A stretch of 64,000 nucleotides of DNA, taken from the NCBI GenBank assembly GCA_963737905.1, contig CAVTUQ010000022.1, positions 128,001-192,000 of the forward strand. The letters run 5' to 3'. Numbering within the stretch: position 1 is the first letter of the stretch; the number at the start of each line of letters is the position of its first letter. Below the pieces are notes generated by a model. That model ran no database searches and was not told the DNA's origin. It saw only the letters and a program-made list of their open reading frames with translations. A program made the translations under genes and the position numbers. This DNA is from an uncultured delta proteobacterium. Its GTDB lineage: Bacteria > Desulfobacterota > Binatia > UBA9968. This document shows, piece after piece, positions 23,778 through 33,569 of this stretch.

Positions 23778-24524
23778 ATGTCCGGTCATTCGAAATGGAG
23801 CACCATCAAGCACAAAAAGGCGGCCAAGGACGCAAAGAAGGGAAGGCTCTTCACCAAGCTCATCAAGGAAATTACGGTGGCGGCTCGGGTGGGCGGCGGT
23901 GACATCAACTCCAACCCGCGTTTGCGCACGGCCGTGATCACGGCAAGAACCAACAGTATGCCGGGAGACAACATTGAGCGGGCGATCAAAAAGGGCACGG
24001 GAGAATTGGAAGGCGTCTCATACGAAGAAATCCAGTACGAAGGATACGGCCCGGGAGGCGCGGCCATCTTGGCGCAGGTGTTGACGGACAACAAAAACCG
24101 TACGGTCTCTGAGATACGGCGCTTGTTTGTCAAACACGGGGGAAATTTGGGAGAGACCGGTTGTGTGGCGTGGATGTTTGACAAAAAAGGTGTCATCACG
24201 GTGGAAAAATCACAAATCGATGAAGACCGCTTGATGGGTTTGGTGCTAGAAGCGGGTGGAGAAGATGTCAAGGACGAGGGTGATCTATTTGAAGTCGTGA
24301 CCCAACCGGAGGACTTCGAAAGAGTCAAAGAAACACTCGACCGGGAAAAGATAGCTCTTGCTAGCGCGCAAATCACGATGGTCCCGAAAAATACGGTCAC
24401 CGTCGGCGAAAAGCATGTGGAACAGATTCTCAAGTTGACCGAAGAGCTCGAGGATCATGATGACGTGCAAAACGTTTCGGCAAATTTTGATATCCCCAGC
24501 GAGTACCTCGAAAAGGCGAGCTGA
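23778..24524 (+). CDS. yebC: YebC/PmpR family protein
   Basis: [35 protein letters not shown]. Confidence 0.95.
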
Positions 24525-25102
24525 TGGAGAGAGCCCCGGACCGTTCGGCTCGCCGGGCCGTGATGAGTCGCAGAATCCTGGGCATCGATCCGGGATCGGT
24601 GGTGACCGGATGGGGCATCGTCGAGGCGGTCGGAAATTCCTTGAGTCATGTGGCCTGTGGCACCATCGCGACCGTCGGTGCCCAAGGGCAAGGGGCTCGG
24701 TTAAGCCGCATCTACAGAGGCATTCAGGAAATCATCGTGCGTTATCGTCCGCACGGAGTCAGTCTGGAAAAGGTTTTTTTTGCGCGCAATCCGCAAAGCG
24801 CTCTTAAACTCGGCCAAGCGCGCGGCGTGGCCTTGCTGGCGGCCGCAGAAAACCAACTGGATGTCTACGAATACAGTTCAAACGAGATCAAGTCGGCGGT
24901 GGTCGGGTATGGCCATGCGACCAAAGAGCAAGTGCAGAAAATGATCGCGGCGCTTCTCCATGTTTCAGAGAAGATGGCCGCCGATGCCGCCGATGCTTTG
25001 GCGGCCGCGGTTTGTCACGTTCATCGGCAGGCCTTTCAAGCCCGTATCGTAGAAGCTGCGCCGGACTGGCGGCCTGCGGTGCGCCGGCGCAGGGTGCCAT
25101 AA
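24524..25102 (+). CDS. ruvC: Holliday junction resolvase
   Basis: ILGIDPG, LEKVFF, LGQARGV, GYGHATKEQV, DAADALA. Confidence 0.95.
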   Translation: MERAPDRSARRAVMSRRILGIDPGSVVTGWGIVEAVGNSLSHVACGTIATVGAQGQGARLSRIYRGIQEIIVRYRPHGVSLEKVFFARNPQSALKLGQARGVALLAAAENQLDVYEYSSNEIKSAVVGYGHATKEQVQKMIAALLHVSEKMAADAADALAAAVCHVHRQAFQARIVEAAPDWRPAVRRRRVP

Positions 25103-25154
25103 GCGGCTCCGGTGATTGGGGAAGCCCTGTCCTGAGAGAAATCCAAGATTCACT

Positions 25155-25748
25155 GTGATTGCGCAAATTAGCGGAACCCTGGCGCATAAGTGGCCGGGAG
25201 AAGTCGTCGTCGATGTCGGGGGCGTCGGCTATCAGATATTTATCCCGCTCAACGTTTTCTATCGACTGCCGGACGTGGGCGGTTCCGTCAGTCTTTACAT
25301 TCATACTCATCTAAGGGAAGATGCGCTGCAGTTGTTCGGCTTTCGGGCAGCGGAAGAAAAACAGGTCTTTCTGTTGCTTATCGGCGTTTCCGGCATCGGT
25401 CCCAAGTTGGCCGTCAATATTCTTTCTGGAATTCCGGCGGAGGAATTGGTACAGGCGGTCAAGGATGGCGATCAGCTGCGGCTGGTGTCGATACCGGGAG
25501 TCGGCAAAAAGCTCGCGGAACGTATGATCGTCGAACTCCGAGATAAATTCACGACGCTGCAGTCTCGGCCATCAGAAGCGGTTACTCAAAGCAATGATTC
25601 TCAACTCATTCAGGATGCGGTGTCGGCGCTGGTCAATCTGGGTTATAGAAAAGCGGAAGTCGAGAAAAACGTGCGCGAGATGAGCCAGACGGGCAAACGG
25701 ACTTTGGAAGAAGTGATCAAGGACGTGCTCCGGCGAATGAGCCGCTAG
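25155..25748 (+). CDS. ruvA: Holliday junction DNA-binding protein
   Basis: [38 protein letters not shown]. Confidence 0.95.
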
Positions 25749-25756
25749 AACCCGCT

Positions 25757-26827
25757 ATGCCGAAACTTGACGACAGGAGCGAGACCTCGATGCCGGCGCG
25801 ACCCGTGGCGCCCAAGCTGGCCGAGGACGATGCCAACTATGACGTGAACTTGCGGCCTCGCGGTTTCGATGAATACGTCGGTCAGGAACAGGTGAAGGAG
25901 AATCTTAAAGTCGCGATTGCCGCGGCCCGCGGGCGCAACGATGTGTTGGATCATATTTTGTTTCATGGACCGCCGGGGTTGGGCAAGACATCGCTCGCCT
26001 ACATTATCTCGCGGGAGATGGGCGTGAACATCAAAGCGACCTCGGGGCCGGTGGTGGAGCGCCCGGGCGATCTTGCCGCGCTGCTCACGAATCTCGAAGA
26101 CGCCGATATACTTTTTATCGACGAGATTCACCGGCTGAACCACGTGGTGGAGGAGGTTCTTTACCCGGCCATGGAAGATTACCAGATCGATATCATGATA
26201 GGTCAGGGTCCTGCGGCCAGGTCGATGAAGCTGCCTTTAAAGCCGTTTACTTTGATCGGGGCAACGACGAGATCCGGTCTTCTTACCTCGCCGCTGCGCG
26301 ATCGCTTTGGACAAATTTTTCGGCTGGACTTCTATTCCACTCAAGCCCTGGCACAAATCCTTAGGCGATCCGCCTCCATTCTGGGTGTCGCCGCAGAAGA
26401 CGAGGGCACGACCGAGATCGCGCGCCGGTCCCGTGGCACTCCGCGAATCGCGAACCGGCTCTTGCGCCGGGTGCGCGATTTTGCCCAGGTCAAGGCGAGT
26501 GGCACGATCACGAAATCCGTTACCCAAGAAGCTCTGCAAATGTTGGAAGTTGACCCCATCGGTCTCGACAAAATGGACACGATGCTCCTCTTAACCTTGA
26601 TCGACAAGTTTTCGGGCGGCCCTGTTGGAATTGAAACACTGGCGGCGGCGATCGGAGACGAAAAGGACACGATCGAGGACGTGTACGAGCCGTTCTTGAT
26701 TCAAGCGGGGTTTCTCAAGCGAACGCCTCGCGGCCGGGTGGCGACGGAGCTGGCCTACGAACATTTCGGGCGCAACCCCGCATCGCCAAAAGGAACCAGT
26801 TCGAAGAATCAACCCAGCCTGTTTTGA
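25757..26827 (+). CDS. ruvB: Holliday junction branch migration helicase
   Basis: [44 protein letters not shown]. Confidence 0.97.
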
Positions 26828-26874
26828 AATGGGTTGCGCGGCAGTAACAAAATAACGACGGGCGAAATACGCAA

Positions 26875-27087
26875 ATGACCGGATTGGGTAAGACGCTGAT
26901 CTATATCGGAATCGTGTTGATCATTCTTGGACTGATCGTTTCGATGGCTGGCAAGATTCCCTGGTTGGGGCATCTTCCGGGCGATATCACCATCCAACGG
27001 GATCGGTTCACCTTCTATTTCCCATTGACCACCTGTATCCTTATCAGTGTGATTATAACGCTTGTCCTTTATTTCTTTAGACGGTAA
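26875..27087 (+). CDS. DUF2905 small membrane protein
   Basis: LGHLPGDI...FYFPLTTCIL motif. Confidence 0.85.
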   Translation: MTGLGKTLIYIGIVLIILGLIVSMAGKIPWLGHLPGDITIQRDRFTFYFPLTTCILISVIITLVLYFFRR

Positions 27088-27125
27088 AATTTGGCTGTCT
27101 TTTTCTCTCCTTAGAAAGTCTGCTC

Positions 27126-29357
27126 ATGGAAAGTTCGGGCACCGTCGAGTCGATCGAGGCACGCCTCAAGCTGGAGGAAGCCAAGCGCCGCAAACGTGAG
27201 GGTTGGGTGATCCTTGCCACTACCCTCATGGTATTGGCGTTTGCGTTTTTTGAAGTGCAGTTGCCCGAGACGGCGCCAGAGTACTCTTTGGGCAACAATA
27301 TCGCTTTCTTTCTCTTGATCAATGTGAACGTTATCCTCCTGGCGCTGCTGGTTTTTCTCGTTGTCCGCAACTTGGTCAAACTTGTCTTCGAACGCAAGAG
27401 AAGGATCCTGGGTTCACGCCTACGGGTGCGGCTAGTATTGGCATTTGTTGCGCTATCGCTTGTGCCCACGTTGCTGTTGTTCGTCATTGCGGGCGGATTC
27501 GTTACCCGTTCTTTTGAAAGATGGTTTGATCTTCAGGTGGAAAACGCGCTGCAAGGCTCCTTGGAGATCGGCCAGACTTATTATCAAAATTCGGCCAACA
27601 ATGCCTTGTTCTATGCGCGGCAGCTGAGTCAACGCATGACTCGAGAGGGGCTCTTCGAGGCTCATCGACTTGGCGAGCTCAAGGAGTTCATCCAAAACAA
27701 ACAGCAGGAGTATAACCTCGGAACCGTTGAATTGTTCTCGCCTGACTATCGATCACTGGTTGTCGCGTTCAACGAACAAGTACCGACGGGAGTCACCATC
27801 AAACCTGAAAAGGAGTTTCTGAATCGGGCGCTCCGGGGTCTGGAAGTGACGCGAACCCAAGCGTTTGGAGAAGGGGACATTATCCGTGGAGGCGTTCCGA
27901 TCTATAGTGGGGACAAGCGCGTGCTCGGAGTCGTGGTGGTCGACTATTATGTGCCCAAAAGCATCACTAAAAGAGCCTTGCAAATTTCCCGTTCCTACGA
28001 ACAGTACAAACATTTGATGTTTCTCAAGGCGCCGATCAAAAATAGCTATATTTTGACCCTTCTCCTCATCACGTTGGTGATTATCTTCGCGGCCACCTGG
28101 TGTGGGCTTTATCTTGCCAAAGGCATCACGGTCCCGATCCAAAAACTTGCGGAAGGAACCCATGAAGTTGCCCAGGGAAACTGGGACTACAAAATCGATT
28201 CCGGAGGAGACGATGAGATTGGGACTTTGGTGGAATCGTTCAACCAGATGACCCGGGATCTCAAGCAGATCAATTTAGAACTGGAACAGAGAAAGCGCTT
28301 TGTGGAGACGCTTCTCGCCAATATCACGGCAGGCGTGATCGCGGTGGATCCCGCGGGAAGAATTACGACGTGGAACAAGACCGCCGAGGAGATGTTGGGA
28401 GTCGAGGCGGTGGGCGTGCTCGGAAGAAATCAGGAAGAGGTCTTTCAGGGCGGACGGCTCCAAGTCATGCGCGACATCCTGGAAAGCGTGAAAGACCGGG
28501 AGAGCGTGGAGCGCCAAATTAAGATTCCTTTACCGGACCAATTGCTTACCGTGGTGGTGACGGCGGCAACCTTGCGCGACGATGAGGGAAAGACCATGGG
28601 GGTCATGATCTTCCTCGAGGACATTACCCAGATTCAAAAGGTGCAGAGAATGGAGGCCTGGCGCGAAGTCGCGCGGCGCATTGCTCATGAGATCAAAAAT
28701 CCGCTGACGCCCATCCAATTGTCCGCCGAGCGGCTCCGAAAACGGTACGCCAAATTGCTCGAGGGCAACGGTGCGGTTTTGGATAAGTGTACTTCGACCA
28801 TCATCCAGCAGGTGGACGAGCTGAAAAATCTCGTCAATGAATTTTCTCATTTCGCTCGATTGCCTGCGGCCCACCTCACCACTAACGACCTGAACGCGAT
28901 CGTTCAGGAGTCTCTGTTTCTCTTCAAGGAAGGGCATGACAAACTCCACTTCCAATTTCGCAACGGAGATATCCCGCCGCTCGAATTGGACCGGGAACAG
29001 ATCAAACGAGTGATTATCAATTTATTGGACAACGCGGTGGCGGCCGTAGGAGAAAATGGCGAAATCAGGATGACCACGAGTCATGATCCCTCTCGGGGAG
29101 TCGTCTTTTTAGAGGTCGCGGATAATGGCTGTGGTGTGGCGCCGGAAGTAAGAACCAGAATTTTCGAGCCTTATTTTTCCACCAAAAAGAATGGCACTGG
29201 TTTGGGACTCACCATCGTCAGCCAGATCATCGAAGATCACCGGGGCTACATCCGGGTGCGACCCAATGAACCCCAGGGGACCCGGTTGACGATCGAGTTT
29301 CCCGTGCCAACGGAGAGTCAGCTTGTCGAGAACAGGAAGAAGGCAATGCATTCTTAG
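27126..29357 (+). CDS. NtrY-type membrane sensor histidine kinase (HAMP, PAS, HisKA, HATPase)
   Basis: N-terminal TMs, DDEIGTLVESFNQMT, AWREVARRIAHEIKNPLTPIQL, NLLDNA, DNGCG, GTGLGL. Confidence 0.92.
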   Translation: MESSGTVESIEARLKLEEAKRRKREGWVILATTLMVLAFAFFEVQLPETAPEYSLGNNIAFFLLINVNVILLALLVFLVVRNLVKLVFERKRRILGSRLRVRLVLAFVALSLVPTLLLFVIAGGFVTRSFERWFDLQVENALQGSLEIGQTYYQNSANNALFYARQLSQRMTREGLFEAHRLGELKEFIQNKQQEYNLGTVELFSPDYRSLVVAFNEQVPTGVTIKPEKEFLNRALRGLEVTRTQAFGEGDIIRGGVPIYSGDKRVLGVVVVDYYVPKSITKRALQISRSYEQYKHLMFLKAPIKNSYILTLLLITLVIIFAATWCGLYLAKGITVPIQKLAEGTHEVAQGNWDYKIDSGGDDEIGTLVESFNQMTRDLKQINLELEQRKRFVETLLANITAGVIAVDPAGRITTWNKTAEEMLGVEAVGVLGRNQEEVFQGGRLQVMRDILESVKDRESVERQIKIPLPDQLLTVVVTAATLRDDEGKTMGVMIFLEDITQIQKVQRMEAWREVARRIAHEIKNPLTPIQLSAERLRKRYAKLLEGNGAVLDKCTSTIIQQVDELKNLVNEFSHFARLPAAHLTTNDLNAIVQESLFLFKEGHDKLHFQFRNGDIPPLELDREQIKRVIINLLDNAVAAVGENGEIRMTTSHDPSRGVVFLEVADNGCGVAPEVRTRIFEPYFSTKKNGTGLGLTIVSQIIEDHRGYIRVRPNEPQGTRLTIEFPVPTESQLVENRKKAMHS

Positions 29358-29374
29358 ATGAATTTAGGAAGGCG

Positions 29375-30679
29375 ATGAAAGAACGGCCGGCACAGAAAAC
29401 GATACTGATCGTCGATGACGAGGACAAAGTTCGGGAGTCGGTCCGAGAAGTTTTGACCGACGAGGGCTATCGCGTTGTGGACACCGCCGACGGCGCTCGC
29501 GTGCTTGAATTGATTGAACGGGAAAAGCCCGGGCTCGTGCTGCTGGATATTTGGATGCCGCAGATTGACGGCATCGATCTGCTTAAGCAGATTAGGAGCA
29601 AGGAGCCCGCGATCCACGTAGTCATGATTTCAGGCCATGGGAATATTCACACGGCGGTGACGGCGACCAAATTCGGAGCGTTCGATTTTATCGAGAAGCC
29701 GCTGTCTTTAGATGCACTGCTGTTGACGGTGCAGCGGGCCTTAGGTGACTATTCGCCGCGCCGCTCCAAAGGGGTCACCGGTAACGGAGGCAGAAAATCG
29801 AAAACCGGGAAGCGCCCACCGGCGACAGCAAGACGCGGAAACTCGAATCCATCCATCAAGCAACGCACCTTGAAGAAGAGTGTTGTGACATCGGGGCAAG
29901 GACTTCACTCGGGAATGAAGACCGGTCTTATTCTCCACCCGCTACCGCCTAATAGTGGGATTCTCTTCACCGGCATTTCTGGTGATGTGCAGGTACCCGC
30001 CCACCTGGATCATGTGGGATCGACCGGATATGCGACTTCACTCCGCGCCAAGGGGTTTGCCGTGGGGACGGTGGAGCATTTATTGGCCGTGCTGCATAGT
30101 TACGGTATCACCAATCTGCTCGTCAAGGTTCAAGGGGAGGTTCCGATCCTGGATGGTTCCGCCCTGGAGTTCTGTAACCTCATTGACGACGTCGGCGTGC
30201 AGGAAGAAAGGGAGGAATGGTCCGAAATAGTGGTTGATCGACCGTATCGAATCGGGAGCCCCGGGGGTGAGTCGATCACCGTCGAGCCTGCGGAAGTCTT
30301 CTCGGTGCATTATGTTTTGAATTATCCCAAGCCGGTGGGCATCCAAGAGCATACTTACACCCACAGAGGTCCCACCTTGTTTAAGGAAGAAATCGCGCCG
30401 GCCCGAACCTTCGGCTTTTTGAGGGACGTCGAACAGCTGCAACAAGCCGGCTTGGTTAATGGCGGCAAGCTCAACAATTGCATCCTCATTGATGACGAGA
30501 AAATCGTCAATACGGATCTACGATTCCCCAACGAGTTAGCGCGCCACAAGATCCTCGATATTATGGGTGACTTTTACTTACTCGGGAAGCCGGTTCGAGG
30601 TGCCATTACCGCTCACATGACGGGCCACTCCGACAATATTGCCCTGCTGCGAGAGCTGCGAAGCGGGATGGGTCTTTAG
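29375..30679 (+). CDS. lpxC: Receiver domain fused to UDP-3-O-acyl-GlcNAc deacetylase (REC-LpxC)
   Basis: ILIVDDED, LLDIWMP, MISGHG, FIEKP; basic linker; KQRTLK, GQGLHSG, TVEHLL, VPILDGSA, ARTFGF, HKILDIMGD, GH. Confidence 0.92.
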   Translation: MKERPAQKTILIVDDEDKVRESVREVLTDEGYRVVDTADGARVLELIEREKPGLVLLDIWMPQIDGIDLLKQIRSKEPAIHVVMISGHGNIHTAVTATKFGAFDFIEKPLSLDALLLTVQRALGDYSPRRSKGVTGNGGRKSKTGKRPPATARRGNSNPSIKQRTLKKSVVTSGQGLHSGMKTGLILHPLPPNSGILFTGISGDVQVPAHLDHVGSTGYATSLRAKGFAVGTVEHLLAVLHSYGITNLLVKVQGEVPILDGSALEFCNLIDDVGVQEEREEWSEIVVDRPYRIGSPGGESITVEPAEVFSVHYVLNYPKPVGIQEHTYTHRGPTLFKEEIAPARTFGFLRDVEQLQQAGLVNGGKLNNCILIDDEKIVNTDLRFPNELARHKILDIMGDFYLLGKPVRGAITAHMTGHSDNIALLRELRSGMGL

Positions 30680-30729
30680 CAGAGATCGGCAACTTTGCGC
30701 TCTCTGCACCCTTTCCAAACAACAAAAAT

Positions 30730-31179
30730 ATGGTCTCTTCTGTCTCTTTTCCACGACTCTTTACAGTGGGCGAAGCGAATGTGCTGCTGCCCACGGTGCG
30801 TAGGTTGATGGAAAGGATCGAGGAAAATATCAAGCGACTGAGAAACCAAAGCAAAACCATCATCCGCGATGAACAACTCGATCCAGACGCCATGGATTTC
30901 ATGGACCGATTGCAGGAACATAATGAAATTGCTCGGATCGTGGCAGAAGTCAAAGGCTGGGTGGAAGAGATCCAAAGCTATGGTTGCATCTGCAAGGGAG
31001 TGGAACAGGGTCTCGTCGATTTCCCGTGCCTACTAGGGACGGAAGTGGTGTTTCTCTGCTGGCAGTTGGGTGAGCCGACCGTCAGCTATTGGCACCGGAT
31101 CGAAGACGGCTTTGCGGGGCGCCGCGCCTTGCTTGATGTCGAGAAAACGGAATCCGATAAGAAGAGTCCTTACCACTAA
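30730..31179 (+). CDS. DUF2203 family protein
   Basis: FTVGEANVLLP, GLVDFP, FLCWQLGE, WH...GFAGR. Confidence 0.85.
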   Translation: MVSSVSFPRLFTVGEANVLLPTVRRLMERIEENIKRLRNQSKTIIRDEQLDPDAMDFMDRLQEHNEIARIVAEVKGWVEEIQSYGCICKGVEQGLVDFPCLLGTEVVFLCWQLGEPTVSYWHRIEDGFAGRRALLDVEKTESDKKSPYH

Positions 31180-31253
31180 TCGGTCCGTCAATTTTCCGTT
31201 CATCTCCAATCGTGCTTGTTTCGATTCAATCGGTCGGTAGGTTGGGAGGTTTT

Positions 31254-32426
31254 ATGATCGCCCAGGATGAAGACGCGCTATCGCTCCGGGTCAAAGACGA
31301 AGCACAGCGCCTGGGTTTTGAGTTGGTCGGAATTTCGCCGGTCAAACTTCCGCCCCATGAGGAGTCGTTCGCCGAGTGGCTGCGGCGGGGCTTCTCGGGA
31401 CAGCTGGACTATATGAAACGAACCGAGGATCTACGACGTGATCCCCATCGACTCGTCCCTTGGGCGGTGTCCGTTATCTCGGTCGGAATGAATTATTATA
31501 CGCCTTTTTCCCGCCCGCGAGCGTCGGATCAGCCAAAGGGTTGGATTTCCCGTTACGCGTGGGGCGATGATTACCATACTCTAATCAAAAACCAGTTGGA
31601 GTCTCTCCTCAACGGCATTCGACGGATTTGGAACGGACCCGTGGAAGGAAAAGTCTTTGTGGATTCCGGTCCGGTGCTGGAGCGGGAGTTTGCCGGCATC
31701 GCGGGTGTCGGCTGGATCGGCAAAAACACCCATCTCATTTCCCCCCAAAGGGGCTCGTGGTTTTTTTTGGGAGAACTTTTCCTCAGCATACCGCTCGGTT
31801 ATGATCGGCCGATTCGCGATCGGTGTGGAAAATGCGATCTGTGTTTGAAAGCCTGCCCCACAGGGGCTTTCGTGGGACCCTACGTGCTGGACGCGCGCCG
31901 CTGCATTTCCTACTTGACAATTGAGCTCAAAGGCCTGATGCCTCGCCATCTTCGTCCGCTTGTAGGAAATCACATCTTTGGCTGCGACATCTGTCAAGAG
32001 ATCTGTCCGTATAACGTAAAGGCTCCACCAACCCGGGAAAAGGCGTACGCTCCAAGAGAGGGACTGTATGCACCCGATCTGATTCCCTTGCTGTCTCTAG
32101 ATGAAGAGGAGTTTCGGCACAGATTTCGTGGCAGCCCGATCCTTCGCGCAAAGCGAAAGGGATTATTGCGCAATGTTGCGGTTGCTCTCGGGAATACGAG
32201 AAGCCGTGCGGCCACGCCTGCGTTGATTCGGGCGCTCGATGATGAAGAAATGCTAGTGCGAGCCCACGTCGCTTGGGCGTTGGGTCAGATCGGTTCGCCA
32301 GAGGGAATGAACGCACTGGAAAAAAGGTTGCGCATCGAGAGCGATCCCACGGTCCGGATCGAAATCGAGGATGCGATCACGGAAGCCAAGAAGACCGTTA
32401 GCCCCGTTCCGAGCGTACAAGAATGA
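31254..32426 (+). CDS. queG: tRNA epoxyqueuosine reductase with C-terminal HEAT repeats
   Basis: SRYAWGDDYH, VDSGPVLER, GWIGKN, CGKCDLCLKACPT, CISYLTIE, GCDICQEICP. Confidence 0.93.
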   Translation: MIAQDEDALSLRVKDEAQRLGFELVGISPVKLPPHEESFAEWLRRGFSGQLDYMKRTEDLRRDPHRLVPWAVSVISVGMNYYTPFSRPRASDQPKGWISRYAWGDDYHTLIKNQLESLLNGIRRIWNGPVEGKVFVDSGPVLEREFAGIAGVGWIGKNTHLISPQRGSWFFLGELFLSIPLGYDRPIRDRCGKCDLCLKACPTGAFVGPYVLDARRCISYLTIELKGLMPRHLRPLVGNHIFGCDICQEICPYNVKAPPTREKAYAPREGLYAPDLIPLLSLDEEEFRHRFRGSPILRAKRKGLLRNVAVALGNTRSRAATPALIRALDDEEMLVRAHVAWALGQIGSPEGMNALEKRLRIESDPTVRIEIEDAITEAKKTVSPVPSVQE

Positions 32427-32480
32427 TCGTGCGTTCACGCTATGACGGCGCCCAACGTCCGGGGCGGCTTAGGTCTTTAG

Positions 32481-32930
32481 TCAGCCTGCGGTTGGCTGGG
32501 CTGGCGTGACCAAGGCTTTGGCCAAGAGTTGTACCACGTTGCTGGGGATCCGCTTCATTCGTCCATCCGCATCGACGCAGGCGTGCTTCGTCGATCCCAA
32601 CGCCAACGCCGCGCTGTCACCTTCCCGTGAGATTGTATAATCGAAATTCAGCGTGGCGCGGCCGACGGACGAGAGTTGAGTTGCAATCGTGATGACGTCA
32701 TCGTAGCGAGCTGATTGGAAGTAGCGACAGGAAACTTCGGTTACAGGAAAATGAAACCCTTGCTCTTCGATTGTTTTGTAGGGAAGACCGATTTGGCGCA
32801 GAAATTCCGATCGGCCCTTTTCAAACCACCGAAGATAATTTGCGTAATAGACGACGCCCATCTGGTCGGTGTCTCCGTAGATGACGCGATCGGTTGTGAC
32901 GATTTTATGGTTTGCGCCGAGTTGCCCCAT
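32481..32930 (-). CDS. YbgC/FadM-family acyl-CoA thioesterase
   Basis: DTDQMGVVYYANYLRWFE, ARYDD. Confidence 0.9.
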   Translation of the reverse strand: MGQLGANHKIVTTDRVIYGDTDQMGVVYYANYLRWFEKGRSEFLRQIGLPYKTIEEQGFHFPVTEVSCRYFQSARYDDVITIATQLSSVGRATLNFDYTISREGDSAALALGSTKHACVDADGRMKRIPSNVVQLLAKALVTPAQPTAG

Positions 32931-33104
32931 CAACCATACTCCTAGTTCTTTTTTCGCCCGTTCTCAATCTACGTAGGAAGCCGCTCCGTCTTGACAAGGC
33001 AAAGGGATCTATGGTTTAAAACTTTCGCATTTGCGTAACGATTGCTTGACCCCATCGGTACAAATCGAGCGCCTATTTTCCCTCGACGAGAAGGAGGACA
33101 AAGA

Positions 33105-33569
33105 ATGAAGGGTTCAGCCAACTACGTCATCGGATCTATTGCCGCATTCCTAGTGGCGGTTGGAATGCTGGCTTGCACATCGGTACAGGAGCAACCGAAG
33201 CCGGCGGCGCCCGCCGTCGCCCAACAAACGACGCCGACTACCGGAAAGGAAGAGCCGAGCAAACAGGAGTCCAGCAAGACGGGGACAAAAGCGACCAAAA
33301 CGAAGGTTGTCGAGGTGGAAGGTGTGATCAGCAGCGTTGGCCAGCGCACCATCACCTTTCAAGTTGAGCGTAAGGGGAAAGTCCGAGAAGAGGTCGTGGG
33401 TGTTGACGACAAGACTAGTATCGAGAAGGCCGGAAACAGAGTTAAATTAAGAGACTTGCAGGAGACAGATAAGGCGTTGATTAACTACGAGCCGGATGCC
33501 TATACACCGGCGTTGGCGATCAAGGTTGTCGGCCAAGGTAAAATACAGAAAGTCGGCGGGGACGACTAG
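33105..33569 (+). CDS. Hypothetical lipoprotein with OB-fold-like C-terminal domain
   Basis: AAGGAGG RBS, lipobox MLAC, low-complexity linker, beta-rich C-terminus. Confidence 0.7.
   Translation: MKGSANYVIGSIAAFLVAVGMLACTSVQEQPKPAAPAVAQQTTPTTGKEEPSKQESSKTGTKATKTKVVEVEGVISSVGQRTITFQVERKGKVREEVVGVDDKTSIEKAGNRVKLRDLQETDKALINYEPDAYTPALAIKVVGQGKIQKVGGDD

What the first reader, a model, noticed from the sequence alone, without database searches (positions are those of the whole stretch)
27126..31179. Sensor kinase paired with a receiver domain fused directly to LpxC: possible phospho-switch on lipid A synthesis
Seen: one uninterrupted 434-aa ORF (29375-30679), 17 nt after an NtrY-type kinase. It has a complete NtrX-like receiver (acidic DDE, phospho-Asp in LLDIWMP, S in MISG, conserved KP), a ~38-aa basic Gly/Arg/Lys linker, then a full LpxC from ~29858 with all Zn/catalytic motifs (TVEH, HKILD, GH). 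There is no ATG or RBS before IKQRTLK, so LpxC has no independent start. Known: NtrY partners normally have AAA+/HTH outputs. LpxC catalyses the committed lipid A step and in E. coli is controlled by FtsH/LapB/YejM proteolysis, not phosphorylation. Inference: the kinase may switch LPS synthesis directly through an enzymatic-output response regulator, possibly formed by in-frame loss of the AAA+-HTH part of an ntrX-lpxC pair. The downstream DUF2203 gene may belong to the same unit.
Basis: partly seen in the sequence, partly recalled or inferred. Interest (0 to 1): 0.9.

Follow-up and report, generated by a model that had tools for sequence, protein, structure and literature searches.

The report
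Phospho-receiver fused to lipid A enzyme LpxC
In this soil bacterium the only copy of LpxC, the enzyme that commits the cell to making outer-membrane lipid A, is fused to a phosphorylation-receiver domain and sits directly behind a sensor kinase, which suggests a direct signalling switch on outer-membrane synthesis that no paper I could search describes.

Summary
ORF 29375-30679 (434 aa) is a full receiver (REC) domain, a disordered basic linker of about 37 residues, and a full LpxC with every catalytic residue. It lies 17 nt after an NtrY-type kinase. It is the only LpxC match in this 87%-complete genome. Contigs from three studies cross the junction without indels.

The fusion is conserved. 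It is full length in 37 of 41 genomes of the order, and some fused form occurs in 35 of 151 sampled genomes of the phylum.

Its origin can be traced. The fused receiver and the kinase correspond to a kinase/sigma-54-activator pair that sits beside a separate lpxC in other lineages; the receivers are reciprocal best hits. Intermediates exist: REC-AAA+-LpxC with a decayed ATPase, and REC-HTH-LpxC. The AAA+ module was lost more than once.

Best reading: phosphorylation by the kinase controls LpxC post-translationally. That function is inferred, not shown. DUF2203 is linked only in close relatives.

Six literature searches found no description. This scan has met the family before on other DNA.

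The parts
27126..29357 (+). NtrY-type sensor histidine kinase (743 aa). Hydrophobic segments at about residues 26-130 and 302-336 flank a loop of about 170 residues. These are followed by HAMP, PAS, HisKA (H-box AHEIKNPL) and HATPase_c.
   Evidence: crude hydropathy scan. No paralogue in the genome at E<=1e-30. Directly upstream of the fusion in 7 of 7 same-class loci and 9 of 9 same-family loci.
29366..29372 (+). Shine-Dalgarno-like AGGAAGG ahead of the fusion's ATG at 29375.
   Evidence: Read directly from the sequence.
29375..30679 (+). REC-linker-LpxC fusion ORF (434 aa plus stop).
29402..29731 (+). Receiver domain, residues 10-119. Acidic pocket D14/D15, phospho-acceptor D58, S86, K108.
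   Evidence: Pfam E 2.5e-32. D15, S86 and K108 are invariant and D58 is present in 40 of 41 diverse fusions. The model shows a (beta-alpha)5 fold. Best NCBIfam receiver match is NtrX, a partial match.
29750..29845 (+). Disordered basic Gly/Arg/Lys linker, residues 126-157.
   Evidence: pLDDT below 50. In 113 parsed close homologues the length is 33-40 and the net charge has median +6, with at least +4 in 101 of 113. The sequence is not conserved.
29855..30658 (+). LpxC catalytic domain, residues 161-428. Begins at the position of the normal LpxC N-terminus and ends 6 residues before the stop, so it lacks the C-terminal extension that the best-matching solved LpxC chain has.
   Evidence: Pfam and TIGR00325. 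Alignment to solved LpxC runs from chain residue 1 to 277 of 302. E234, H235, H391, K392, D395, D399 and H418 are invariant.
30730..31179 (+). DUF2203 gene, 50 nt downstream on the same strand. A neighbour in close relatives only, probably not a core part.
   Evidence: Pfam E 1.5e-33. Follows the fusion in L003-L011 (9 of 9) and in L012, but not in L013-L031.

Best explanation
This is a two-component system whose response regulator has LpxC as its output domain. The membrane NtrY-type kinase senses an unknown signal, which I would guess is related to the envelope. It phosphorylates D58 of the receiver, and the receiver's state then sets how much UDP-3-O-acyl-GlcNAc the attached LpxC deacetylates. 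Lipid A flux is thereby set at the protein level. My preferred form is CheB-like: the unphosphorylated receiver restrains the enzyme through the flexible linker, and phosphorylation, with or without receiver dimerisation, releases it. The gene descends from a kinase/sigma-54-activator pair that controlled lpxC transcription. The activator became fused to LpxC, lost its sigma-54 contact and ATPase, and then shed the AAA+ and DNA-binding parts. Shown here: the anatomy, the conservation, the sole-copy status, the kinase linkage, the orthology and the intermediates. Inferred: phosphotransfer, any effect on catalysis, and its sign.
For: Both domains are complete and the catalytic and phospho-acceptor residues are kept across 41 fusions down to 32% identity. 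Within the family the receiver is as conserved as the enzyme: REC 78-92% and LpxC 77-93% identity in L003-L011. The fusion is the only LpxC match in this genome. In 33 of the 34 other phylum genomes that carry a fused form no second LpxC match is listed (42 weaker matches are unlisted); G074 has one. LpxB and LpxK are present. The kinase is adjacent in 7 of 7 same-class loci, 9 of 9 same-family loci, and in front of 2 of 3 long forms examined. Five of 5 genomes with an unlinked fusion still have an NtrY-like kinase elsewhere. Orthology to an lpxC-linked sigma-54 activator: reciprocal best hits of 149 against 99.6 bits, and 142-151 against at most 90 bits in 4 of 4 genomes, with gene order lpxC-kinase-regulator in 4 of 4. 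Long fusions lack GAFTGA and the Walker B Glu in 15 of 15, against 7 of 7 controls that have them, so transcriptional output was given up while REC and LpxC were kept. Precedent in print: the D. vulgaris NtrC-type regulator DVU2934 has lpxC as its single mapped target (PMC3333781, passages). NtrYX loss raises lpxC transcripts 8.8-fold in R. sphaeroides (PMC7240162, passages; PMC12444477 section 10).
Against: No experiment bears on phosphotransfer or on any effect on LpxC. The AlphaFold2 model gives no fixed domain arrangement (pTM 0.67, linker pLDDT below 50). The linker sequence, and outside the close group its charge too, is not conserved, so it is unlikely to carry a specific regulatory element. 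In 8 loci with short fusions from other families (L019-L025, L029) and one long form (L026) no orthologous kinase lies within the fetched flanks. In the unfused loci lpxC lies upstream of the kinase, not downstream of the regulator, so a simple read-through fusion does not follow from the order I saw. The LpxCs of those unfused loci are not the nearest relatives of the fused LpxCs. A sigma-54-like element upstream of lpxC was found in only 2 of 4 unfused loci.
Confidence: 0.6

Rival explanations
1. Phosphorylation-controlled stability. The receiver acts as a switchable degron or adaptor-binding module, as in RssB- or CpdR-type control (recalled), so the kinase sets the amount of LpxC through proteolysis rather than its catalytic rate.
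For: The LpxC part ends 6 residues after the catalytic domain, whereas the best-matching solved chain continues for about 25 more residues. [quoted passage not shown] Proteolysis is the best-known way of controlling LpxC (PMC12444477, passages). The conserved phospho-pocket and the kinase linkage fit this reading as well as they fit the best explanation.
Against: Nothing in the sequence points to a protease or an adaptor. The review notes that other LpxCs also lack a C-terminal degron. No adaptor gene is conserved next to the fusion.
Confidence: 0.15
2. Tethering or localisation. The receiver mainly brings LpxC to the membrane-bound kinase or makes it dimerise, and the basic linker helps it sit on the anionic inner membrane. 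Phosphorylation changes where the enzyme is, not how it works.
For: Linker length (33-40) and positive charge (at least +4 in 101 of 113) are kept among close homologues although the sequence drifts. The 2025 review reports a proposal that a LapB homologue localises LpxC to the inner membrane in N. meningitidis (passage).
Against: More distant fusions have neutral or acidic linkers. There is no direct evidence for membrane binding.
Confidence: 0.1
3. A frozen accident. LpxC is constitutive, and the receiver is a leftover or only a phosphate sink for the kinase.
For: One short fusion (P0141) has Asn in place of the phospho-acceptor Asp. The AAA+ and HTH parts show that modules in this lineage do decay.
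Against: The receiver pocket is kept in 40 of 41 diverse fusions, and the receiver is as conserved as the enzyme. The AAA+ part was lost repeatedly, yet none of the complete fused proteins examined lacks the receiver.
Confidence: 0.1
4. An assembly or gene-calling artefact that joins two genes or hides a collapsed AAA+/HTH segment.
For: None found.
Against: A 2,452-nt contig of run X1 covers 29245-31200 without gaps. A 435-nt contig of X3 with 0 differences bridges 29541-29975. An X9 contig covers 29719-29937. No indels or joints were listed. The three runs come from three studies, and at most one can be the window's own source. The same architecture occurs in 37 of 41 related genomes.
Confidence: 0.01

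Closest known systems
NtrY/NtrX two-component system (Rhodobacter sphaeroides, Caulobacter crescentus, Brucella)
   Same: The kinase has the NtrY architecture (NtrY_N, HAMP, PAS, HisKA, HATPase_c). The receiver's best NCBIfam match is NtrX (137 bits, partial). Its best solved relatives are 4d6x and 5m7n, which I recall to be Brucella NtrX. NtrYX influences lpxC: transcripts rise 8.8-fold and LPS increases in an R. sphaeroides ntrYX mutant (PMC7240162; PMC12444477).
   Different: NtrX is REC-AAA+-HTH and acts on transcription of many genes, and its effect on lpxC is indirect in R. sphaeroides. Here the output domain is LpxC itself, with no AAA+ and no HTH.
Desulfovibrio vulgaris DVU2931 (kinase) / DVU2934 (NtrC-type regulator), whose single mapped target is lpxC
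   Same: A dedicated two-component system aimed at lpxC. The paper notes that lpxC lies directly upstream of the orthologous regulator operon in S. fumaroxidans (PMC3333781). That is the order I see in L030, L031, L036 and L037, whose receivers are the reciprocal best hits of the fused receiver.
   Different: That control is transcriptional, through an intact sigma-54 activator. Orthology of DVU2934 itself to these regulators was not tested here: I had no sequence from a tool, and the paper's supplementary tables are closed.
CheB and other response regulators with enzymatic outputs (PleD/WspR REC-GGDEF, RpfG REC-HD-GYP); recalled knowledge
   Same: A receiver, a flexible linker and an enzyme in one chain.
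   Different: [quoted passage not shown] Autoinhibitory docking is not shown.
FtsH/LapB/YejM control of LpxC in E. coli
   Same: [quoted passage not shown]
   Different: That control is regulated proteolysis through a C-terminal degron. This LpxC lacks the C-terminal extension seen in the best-matching solved chain. A search for the LapB zinc-ribbon family was uninformative.
Bifunctional LpxC/FabZ (NCBIfam NF009667)
   Same: LpxC as part of a multidomain protein. The model matches the LpxC part here (204.9 bits, below its cut-off of 465).
   Different: There the partner is a metabolic enzyme at the C-terminus, not an N-terminal signalling domain.

Membership tests
LpxC (PF03331 / TIGR00325) | Full-length match above the curated cut-offs | tested here: met
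   Pfam 272.4 bits (cut-off 27), profile 1-266 of 268. TIGR00325 247 bits (cut-off 187.25).
LpxC (PF03331 / TIGR00325) | Zinc ligands (His, His, Asp) and the catalytic Glu/His. The numbering of the E. coli equivalents is recalled. | tested here: met
   E234-H235, H391, D395 and H418 are aligned with the solved P. aeruginosa enzyme and invariant in 41 fusions.
LpxC (PF03331 / TIGR00325) | Deacetylase activity on UDP-3-O-acyl-GlcNAc | not testable with these tools
   Indirect only: it is the sole LpxC match in a genome that has LpxB and LpxK.
Response regulator receiver (PF00072) | The conserved Asp-Asp / Asp / Thr-Ser / Lys set and the (beta-alpha)5 fold | tested here: met
   D14, D15, D58, S86 and K108. 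The model has five strand-helix pairs between residues 9 and 123.
Response regulator receiver (PF00072) | Phosphotransfer from a cognate kinase | not testable with these tools
   Only adjacency to the kinase is shown (17 nt).
NtrX / NtrC-type enhancer-binding regulator | Central sigma-54 AAA+ domain | tested here: not met
   No Sigma54_activat or AAA match in the 434-aa protein. It is present but decayed in the long relatives.
NtrX / NtrC-type enhancer-binding regulator | C-terminal Fis-type HTH | tested here: not met
   No HTH_8 match. One 491-aa relative, P0132, keeps it.
NtrY-type histidine kinase | NtrY_N membrane region plus HAMP, PAS, HisKA and HATPase_c | tested here: met
   All are above their Pfam cut-offs.
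CheB-like autoinhibited enzymatic response regulator | The receiver packs on the catalytic domain in the unphosphorylated state | tested here: inconclusive
   The monomer model gives no confident interdomain geometry (pTM 0.67, disordered linker).

The most novel reading that the evidence does not exclude
A dedicated two-component switch acts directly on the protein that commits the cell to lipid A synthesis, taking the place that FtsH/LapB proteolysis holds in enterobacteria. It arose when a sigma-54 activator of lpxC became fused to the product of its own target gene, and it then shed its ATPase and DNA-binding modules, more than once. This would be a documented path from transcriptional to post-translational control of the same step.
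Probability: 0.45. Interest if true: 0.88.

Novelty: new variant of a known kind. Interest (0 to 1): 0.78.

Why it matters
LpxC is the control point of lipopolysaccharide synthesis and an antibiotic target. [quoted passage not shown] A receiver domain fused to the cell's only LpxC, kept across many uncultured lineages, would be a specific and direct signalling input to outer-membrane synthesis. It can be tested with one purified protein. The series of intermediates also shows how a regulator can fuse to the product of its target gene and then discard its transcriptional machinery.

Tried and rejected
1. Docking of the receiver (residues 1-125) on the LpxC domain (158-434) with complex prediction gave no verdict (score 0.01, mark 0.32, controls not run). 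I draw nothing from it.
2. A search of the own genome for the LapB zinc-ribbon family PF18073 gave one hit in a 57-aa frame. The control search rings in Gram-positive genomes too, so it is uninformative about LapB.
3. Sigma-70 promoter and terminator scans of 24000-33500 found 4 against 5.0 expected, and 12 against 10.5 expected, so no claim is made.
It added L040, a full-span fusion in a 'Deltaproteobacteria bacterium' MAG, and L041, a 50% match to the LpxC part only.
5. A whole-locus sigma-54 promoter scan was at or below the shuffle level (3.45 per locus). Only the region-restricted scan gave 2 of 4.
6. My first Walker A pattern was wrong, because it failed on the controls. I corrected it. 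One search also crashed on that error.
7. The open frames of 1000-1400 aa around the fusion in G150, G183 and G116 looked like kinase-REC-LpxC triple fusions. They are high-GC artefacts, because the kinase is in another frame.
8. RNA run X18: one 198-nt contig with 1 difference lies on 30436-30633, and two short, poorer pieces lie elsewhere. That is too little to claim transcription.
9. An assembly artefact was rejected.
Full report
**Observation**

The window holds a 743-aa ORF at 27126-29357 and a 434-aa ORF at 29375-30679 on the + strand. They are separated by 17 nt that contain AGGAAGG.

Pfam reads the first ORF as NtrY_N, HAMP, PAS, HisKA and HATPase_c. It reads the second as Response_reg (residues 10-119, E 2.5e-32) followed by LpxC (residues 163-428, E 5.5e-81), each covering its profile almost end to end. 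TIGR00325 (lpxC) scores 247 bits against a cut-off of 187. The best receiver model is NtrX, a partial match of 137 bits to positions 3-126 of 452.

Against solved structures the LpxC part aligns from chain residue 1 to 277 of a 302-residue LpxC, and the catalytic motifs are visible. The receiver's best relatives are 4d6x and 5m7n. The protein ends 6 residues after the aligned region, so it lacks the C-terminal extension of that solved chain.

The linker has no ATG. The nearest in-frame TTG (29870) and GTG (29885) lie inside the first conserved strand of LpxC and have no Shine-Dalgarno-like stretch before them.

**Not an artefact, and not an accessory copy**

Contigs of public runs from three studies cross the junction:
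- X1: 2,452 nt covering 29245-31200 with 21 substitutions and no gaps.
- X3: 435 nt with 0 differences covering 29541-29975.
- X9: 219 nt covering 29719-29937.

No indels or joints were listed. At most one of these runs can be the window's own source.

The genome is 87.5% complete with 6.7% contamination. It has one LpxC match, which is this gene, and it also has LpxB and LpxK on another contig.

**Conservation**

- The 120 best hits in the 5.8-billion-protein collection are all proteins of 424-444 aa with both Pfam domains, at 74-99% identity. Three carry NCBI names with 'Candidatus Binatia'.
- Of the 41 genomes of the order (own included), 37 have the full-length fusion in one open frame. 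Three have it cut at contig ends (G003, G014, G031). One genome, 71% complete, shows only paralogous receivers. Two of the 41 (G006, G012) are unpublished; without them the count is 35 of 39.
- In a sample of 151 genomes of the phylum, 19 have a short fusion matched across both domains. Eleven have LpxC at the end of an open frame of at least 690 aa. I checked three of these, and all three are REC-AAA+-LpxC (L026-L028).
- Five more have LpxC in frames of 450-497 aa. I checked one (L029), which is REC plus LpxC.
- Among the 34 carriers other than this genome, only G074 shows a second, stand-alone LpxC among the matches listed (42 weaker matches are not listed).
- Among the best 150 representatives of 50%-identity clusters, 22 are complete short fusions and 15 are long ones.

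**Residues**

I aligned 41 fusions, 90% to 32% identical to the window protein.
- Invariant: D15, S86, K108, E234, H235, H391, K392, D395, D399 and H418.
- D58 is Asp in 40 of 41; P0141 has Asn.
- D14 is Asp in 38 and Glu in 3.
- T345 is Thr in 40 of 41.

Within the family the receiver (78-92% identity) is as conserved as the enzyme (77-93%).

The AlphaFold2 model has mean pLDDT 84 and both domains are well folded. Residues 126-157 are below 50 and pTM is 0.67, so no interdomain geometry is predicted.

The linker keeps its length (33-40 residues) and its positive charge (median +6, at least +4 in 101 of 113 parsed close homologues) but not its sequence. More distant fusions have neutral or acidic linkers.

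**Neighbourhood**

- In 7 of 7 loci from the same class, the orthologous kinase directly precedes the fusion, and ruvA-ruvB lies upstream in 6 of them.
- In 9 of 9 loci of the same family the order is kinase, fusion, DUF2203. QueG follows in 8, and the ninth locus ends too early to tell. One of the nine, L007, is from the unpublished G012.
- DUF2203 also follows in one locus of a second family (L012), but not in the third family or beyond.
- Short fusions of eight loci from other families have varied neighbours and no kinase within the flanks. Five of the 5 genomes I checked do have an NtrY-like kinase elsewhere, at 33-47% identity.
- The kinase has no paralogue in this genome at E<=1e-30.

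**Origin**

Pfam shows a series:
- REC + Sigma54_activat + AAA_lid + LpxC at 650-734 aa (P0122, P0124, P0131, P0133).
- REC + HTH_8 + LpxC at 491 aa (P0132).
- REC + LpxC at 505, 456 and 434 aa.

Source labels place these in 'Deltaproteobacteria bacterium', 'Nitrospinota', 'Candidatus Entotheonellia' and 'Candidatus Binatia' MAGs. They are named only as LpxC or NtrX.

In four genomes with a separate lpxC the order is lpxC, orthologous kinase (43-46% identity), then a regulator of 453-474 aa. That regulator has an intact Walker A, GAFTGA, Walker B and a Fis-type C-terminal tail.

Its receiver and the fused receiver are reciprocal best hits with a wide margin: 149 against 99.6 bits in this genome, and 142-151 against at most 90 bits in 4 of 4 unfused genomes.

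The 15 long fusions lack GAFTGA (0 of 15) and the Walker B Glu (0 of 15), while 7 of 7 controls have both. Thirteen of the 15 keep GxxGxGK. By eye, about 9 of the 15 keep an HTH-like stretch before LpxC and the rest have a basic low-complexity stretch. Pfam did not list HTH_8 at E<=1e-4 in the four long forms that I scanned.

A GG-N10-GC element, GGTATGG(T/A)TATTGCT, lies 51 and 68 nt upstream of lpxC in 2 of the 4 unfused loci, where about 0.2 are expected per region. The other two loci have none.

**Tree**

I built a tree of 73 LpxC domains by the quick method with SH-aLRT support only. A 99* branch sets 28 of 30 stand-alone LpxCs and all 4 LpxCs of unfused loci apart from every fused LpxC. 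Two short 'alone' rows (P0199, P0228) fall among the fusions.

Short forms are interleaved with long ones. P0141 lies in a 100* group with P0125 and P0146, and P0132 is sister to P0142 at 100*.

Holding all 24 AAA+-less forms together against the 15 long ones costs 247.8 log-likelihood units (p-AU 0.00018). I named this group by architecture, but after I had seen the tree. The AAA+ module was therefore lost more than once.

Two points do not fit the simplest story. The LpxCs of the unfused loci are not the nearest relatives of the fused ones. In those loci lpxC also lies upstream of the kinase, not downstream of the regulator.

**Literature**

Six searches found no paper that describes a receiver-LpxC fusion. 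Four were combinations of LpxC with receiver/response-regulator terms or NtrX. The other two were literal fusion names and LpxC with Binatota, and both returned 0 papers. About 1.7 million further PubMed Central articles are not searchable.

Passages I read:
- DVU2934 of D. vulgaris has lpxC as its single target, and in S. fumaroxidans lpxC lies directly upstream of the orthologous operon (PMC3333781).
- Loss of NtrYX raises lpxC transcripts 8.8-fold and LPS in R. sphaeroides, indirectly (PMC7240162).
[quoted passage not shown] It has no occurrence of 'fusion', 'fused', 'response regulator' or 'domain architecture' (PMC12444477).

**Earlier notes of this scan**

A word search returned 26 earlier notes on other genomes, and the 8 shown describe the same family with the same reading. 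I had found the fusion family, the long forms and the DVU2934 paper before I opened them. I then tested the 'ATPase-dead' claim and the 'evolved from an lpxC regulator' claim myself.

**Verdict**

This is a real, ancient and widespread response regulator whose output domain is the cell's only LpxC, paired here with an NtrY-type kinase. It descends from a sigma-54 activator linked to lpxC. That phosphorylation controls LpxC, whether its catalysis, stability or location, is the most likely reading but is untested.

Noticed in passing
G074:C11:39482-40771 and G074:C33:20144-20962: One genome of the phylum sample has both a short REC-LpxC fusion (41% identity) and a separate stand-alone LpxC. In the other carriers, no second LpxC appears among the matches listed.
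   Followed up: no
window 29750-29845: The disordered linker keeps its length (33-40 residues) and a net charge of about +6 in close homologues although its sequence drifts. Several long forms that lack an HTH have a similar basic stretch just before LpxC. Its role is unexplained.
   Followed up: partly
P0141 (454 aa): This short fusion has Asn at the phospho-acceptor position and is nested in a 100* group with two long forms. It may be a pseudo-receiver.
   Followed up: no
L036 about 51 nt and L037 about 68 nt upstream of lpxC: A near-identical sigma-54-like -24/-12 element, GGTATGG(T/A)TATTGCT, lies upstream of the separate lpxC in genomes of two different families.
   Followed up: partly
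P0199 and P0228: Two stand-alone-length LpxC proteins (290 and 283 aa) fall inside the fused-LpxC side of the tree. They may be secondary fissions or truncated gene calls.
   Followed up: no
window 24524-27087 and 30730-32426: A ruvC-like ORF, ruvA, ruvB and a DUF2905 gene precede the kinase. DUF2203 and a QueG-like gene with C-terminal HEAT repeats follow the fusion. ruvA-ruvB upstream of the kinase is kept in 6 of 7 same-class loci.
   Followed up: partly
G150:C1, G183:C2, G116:C1: Open frames of 1000-1400 aa surround the fusion in high-GC relatives. These are stop-poor frames, not longer proteins, because the kinase is in another frame.
   Followed up: yes
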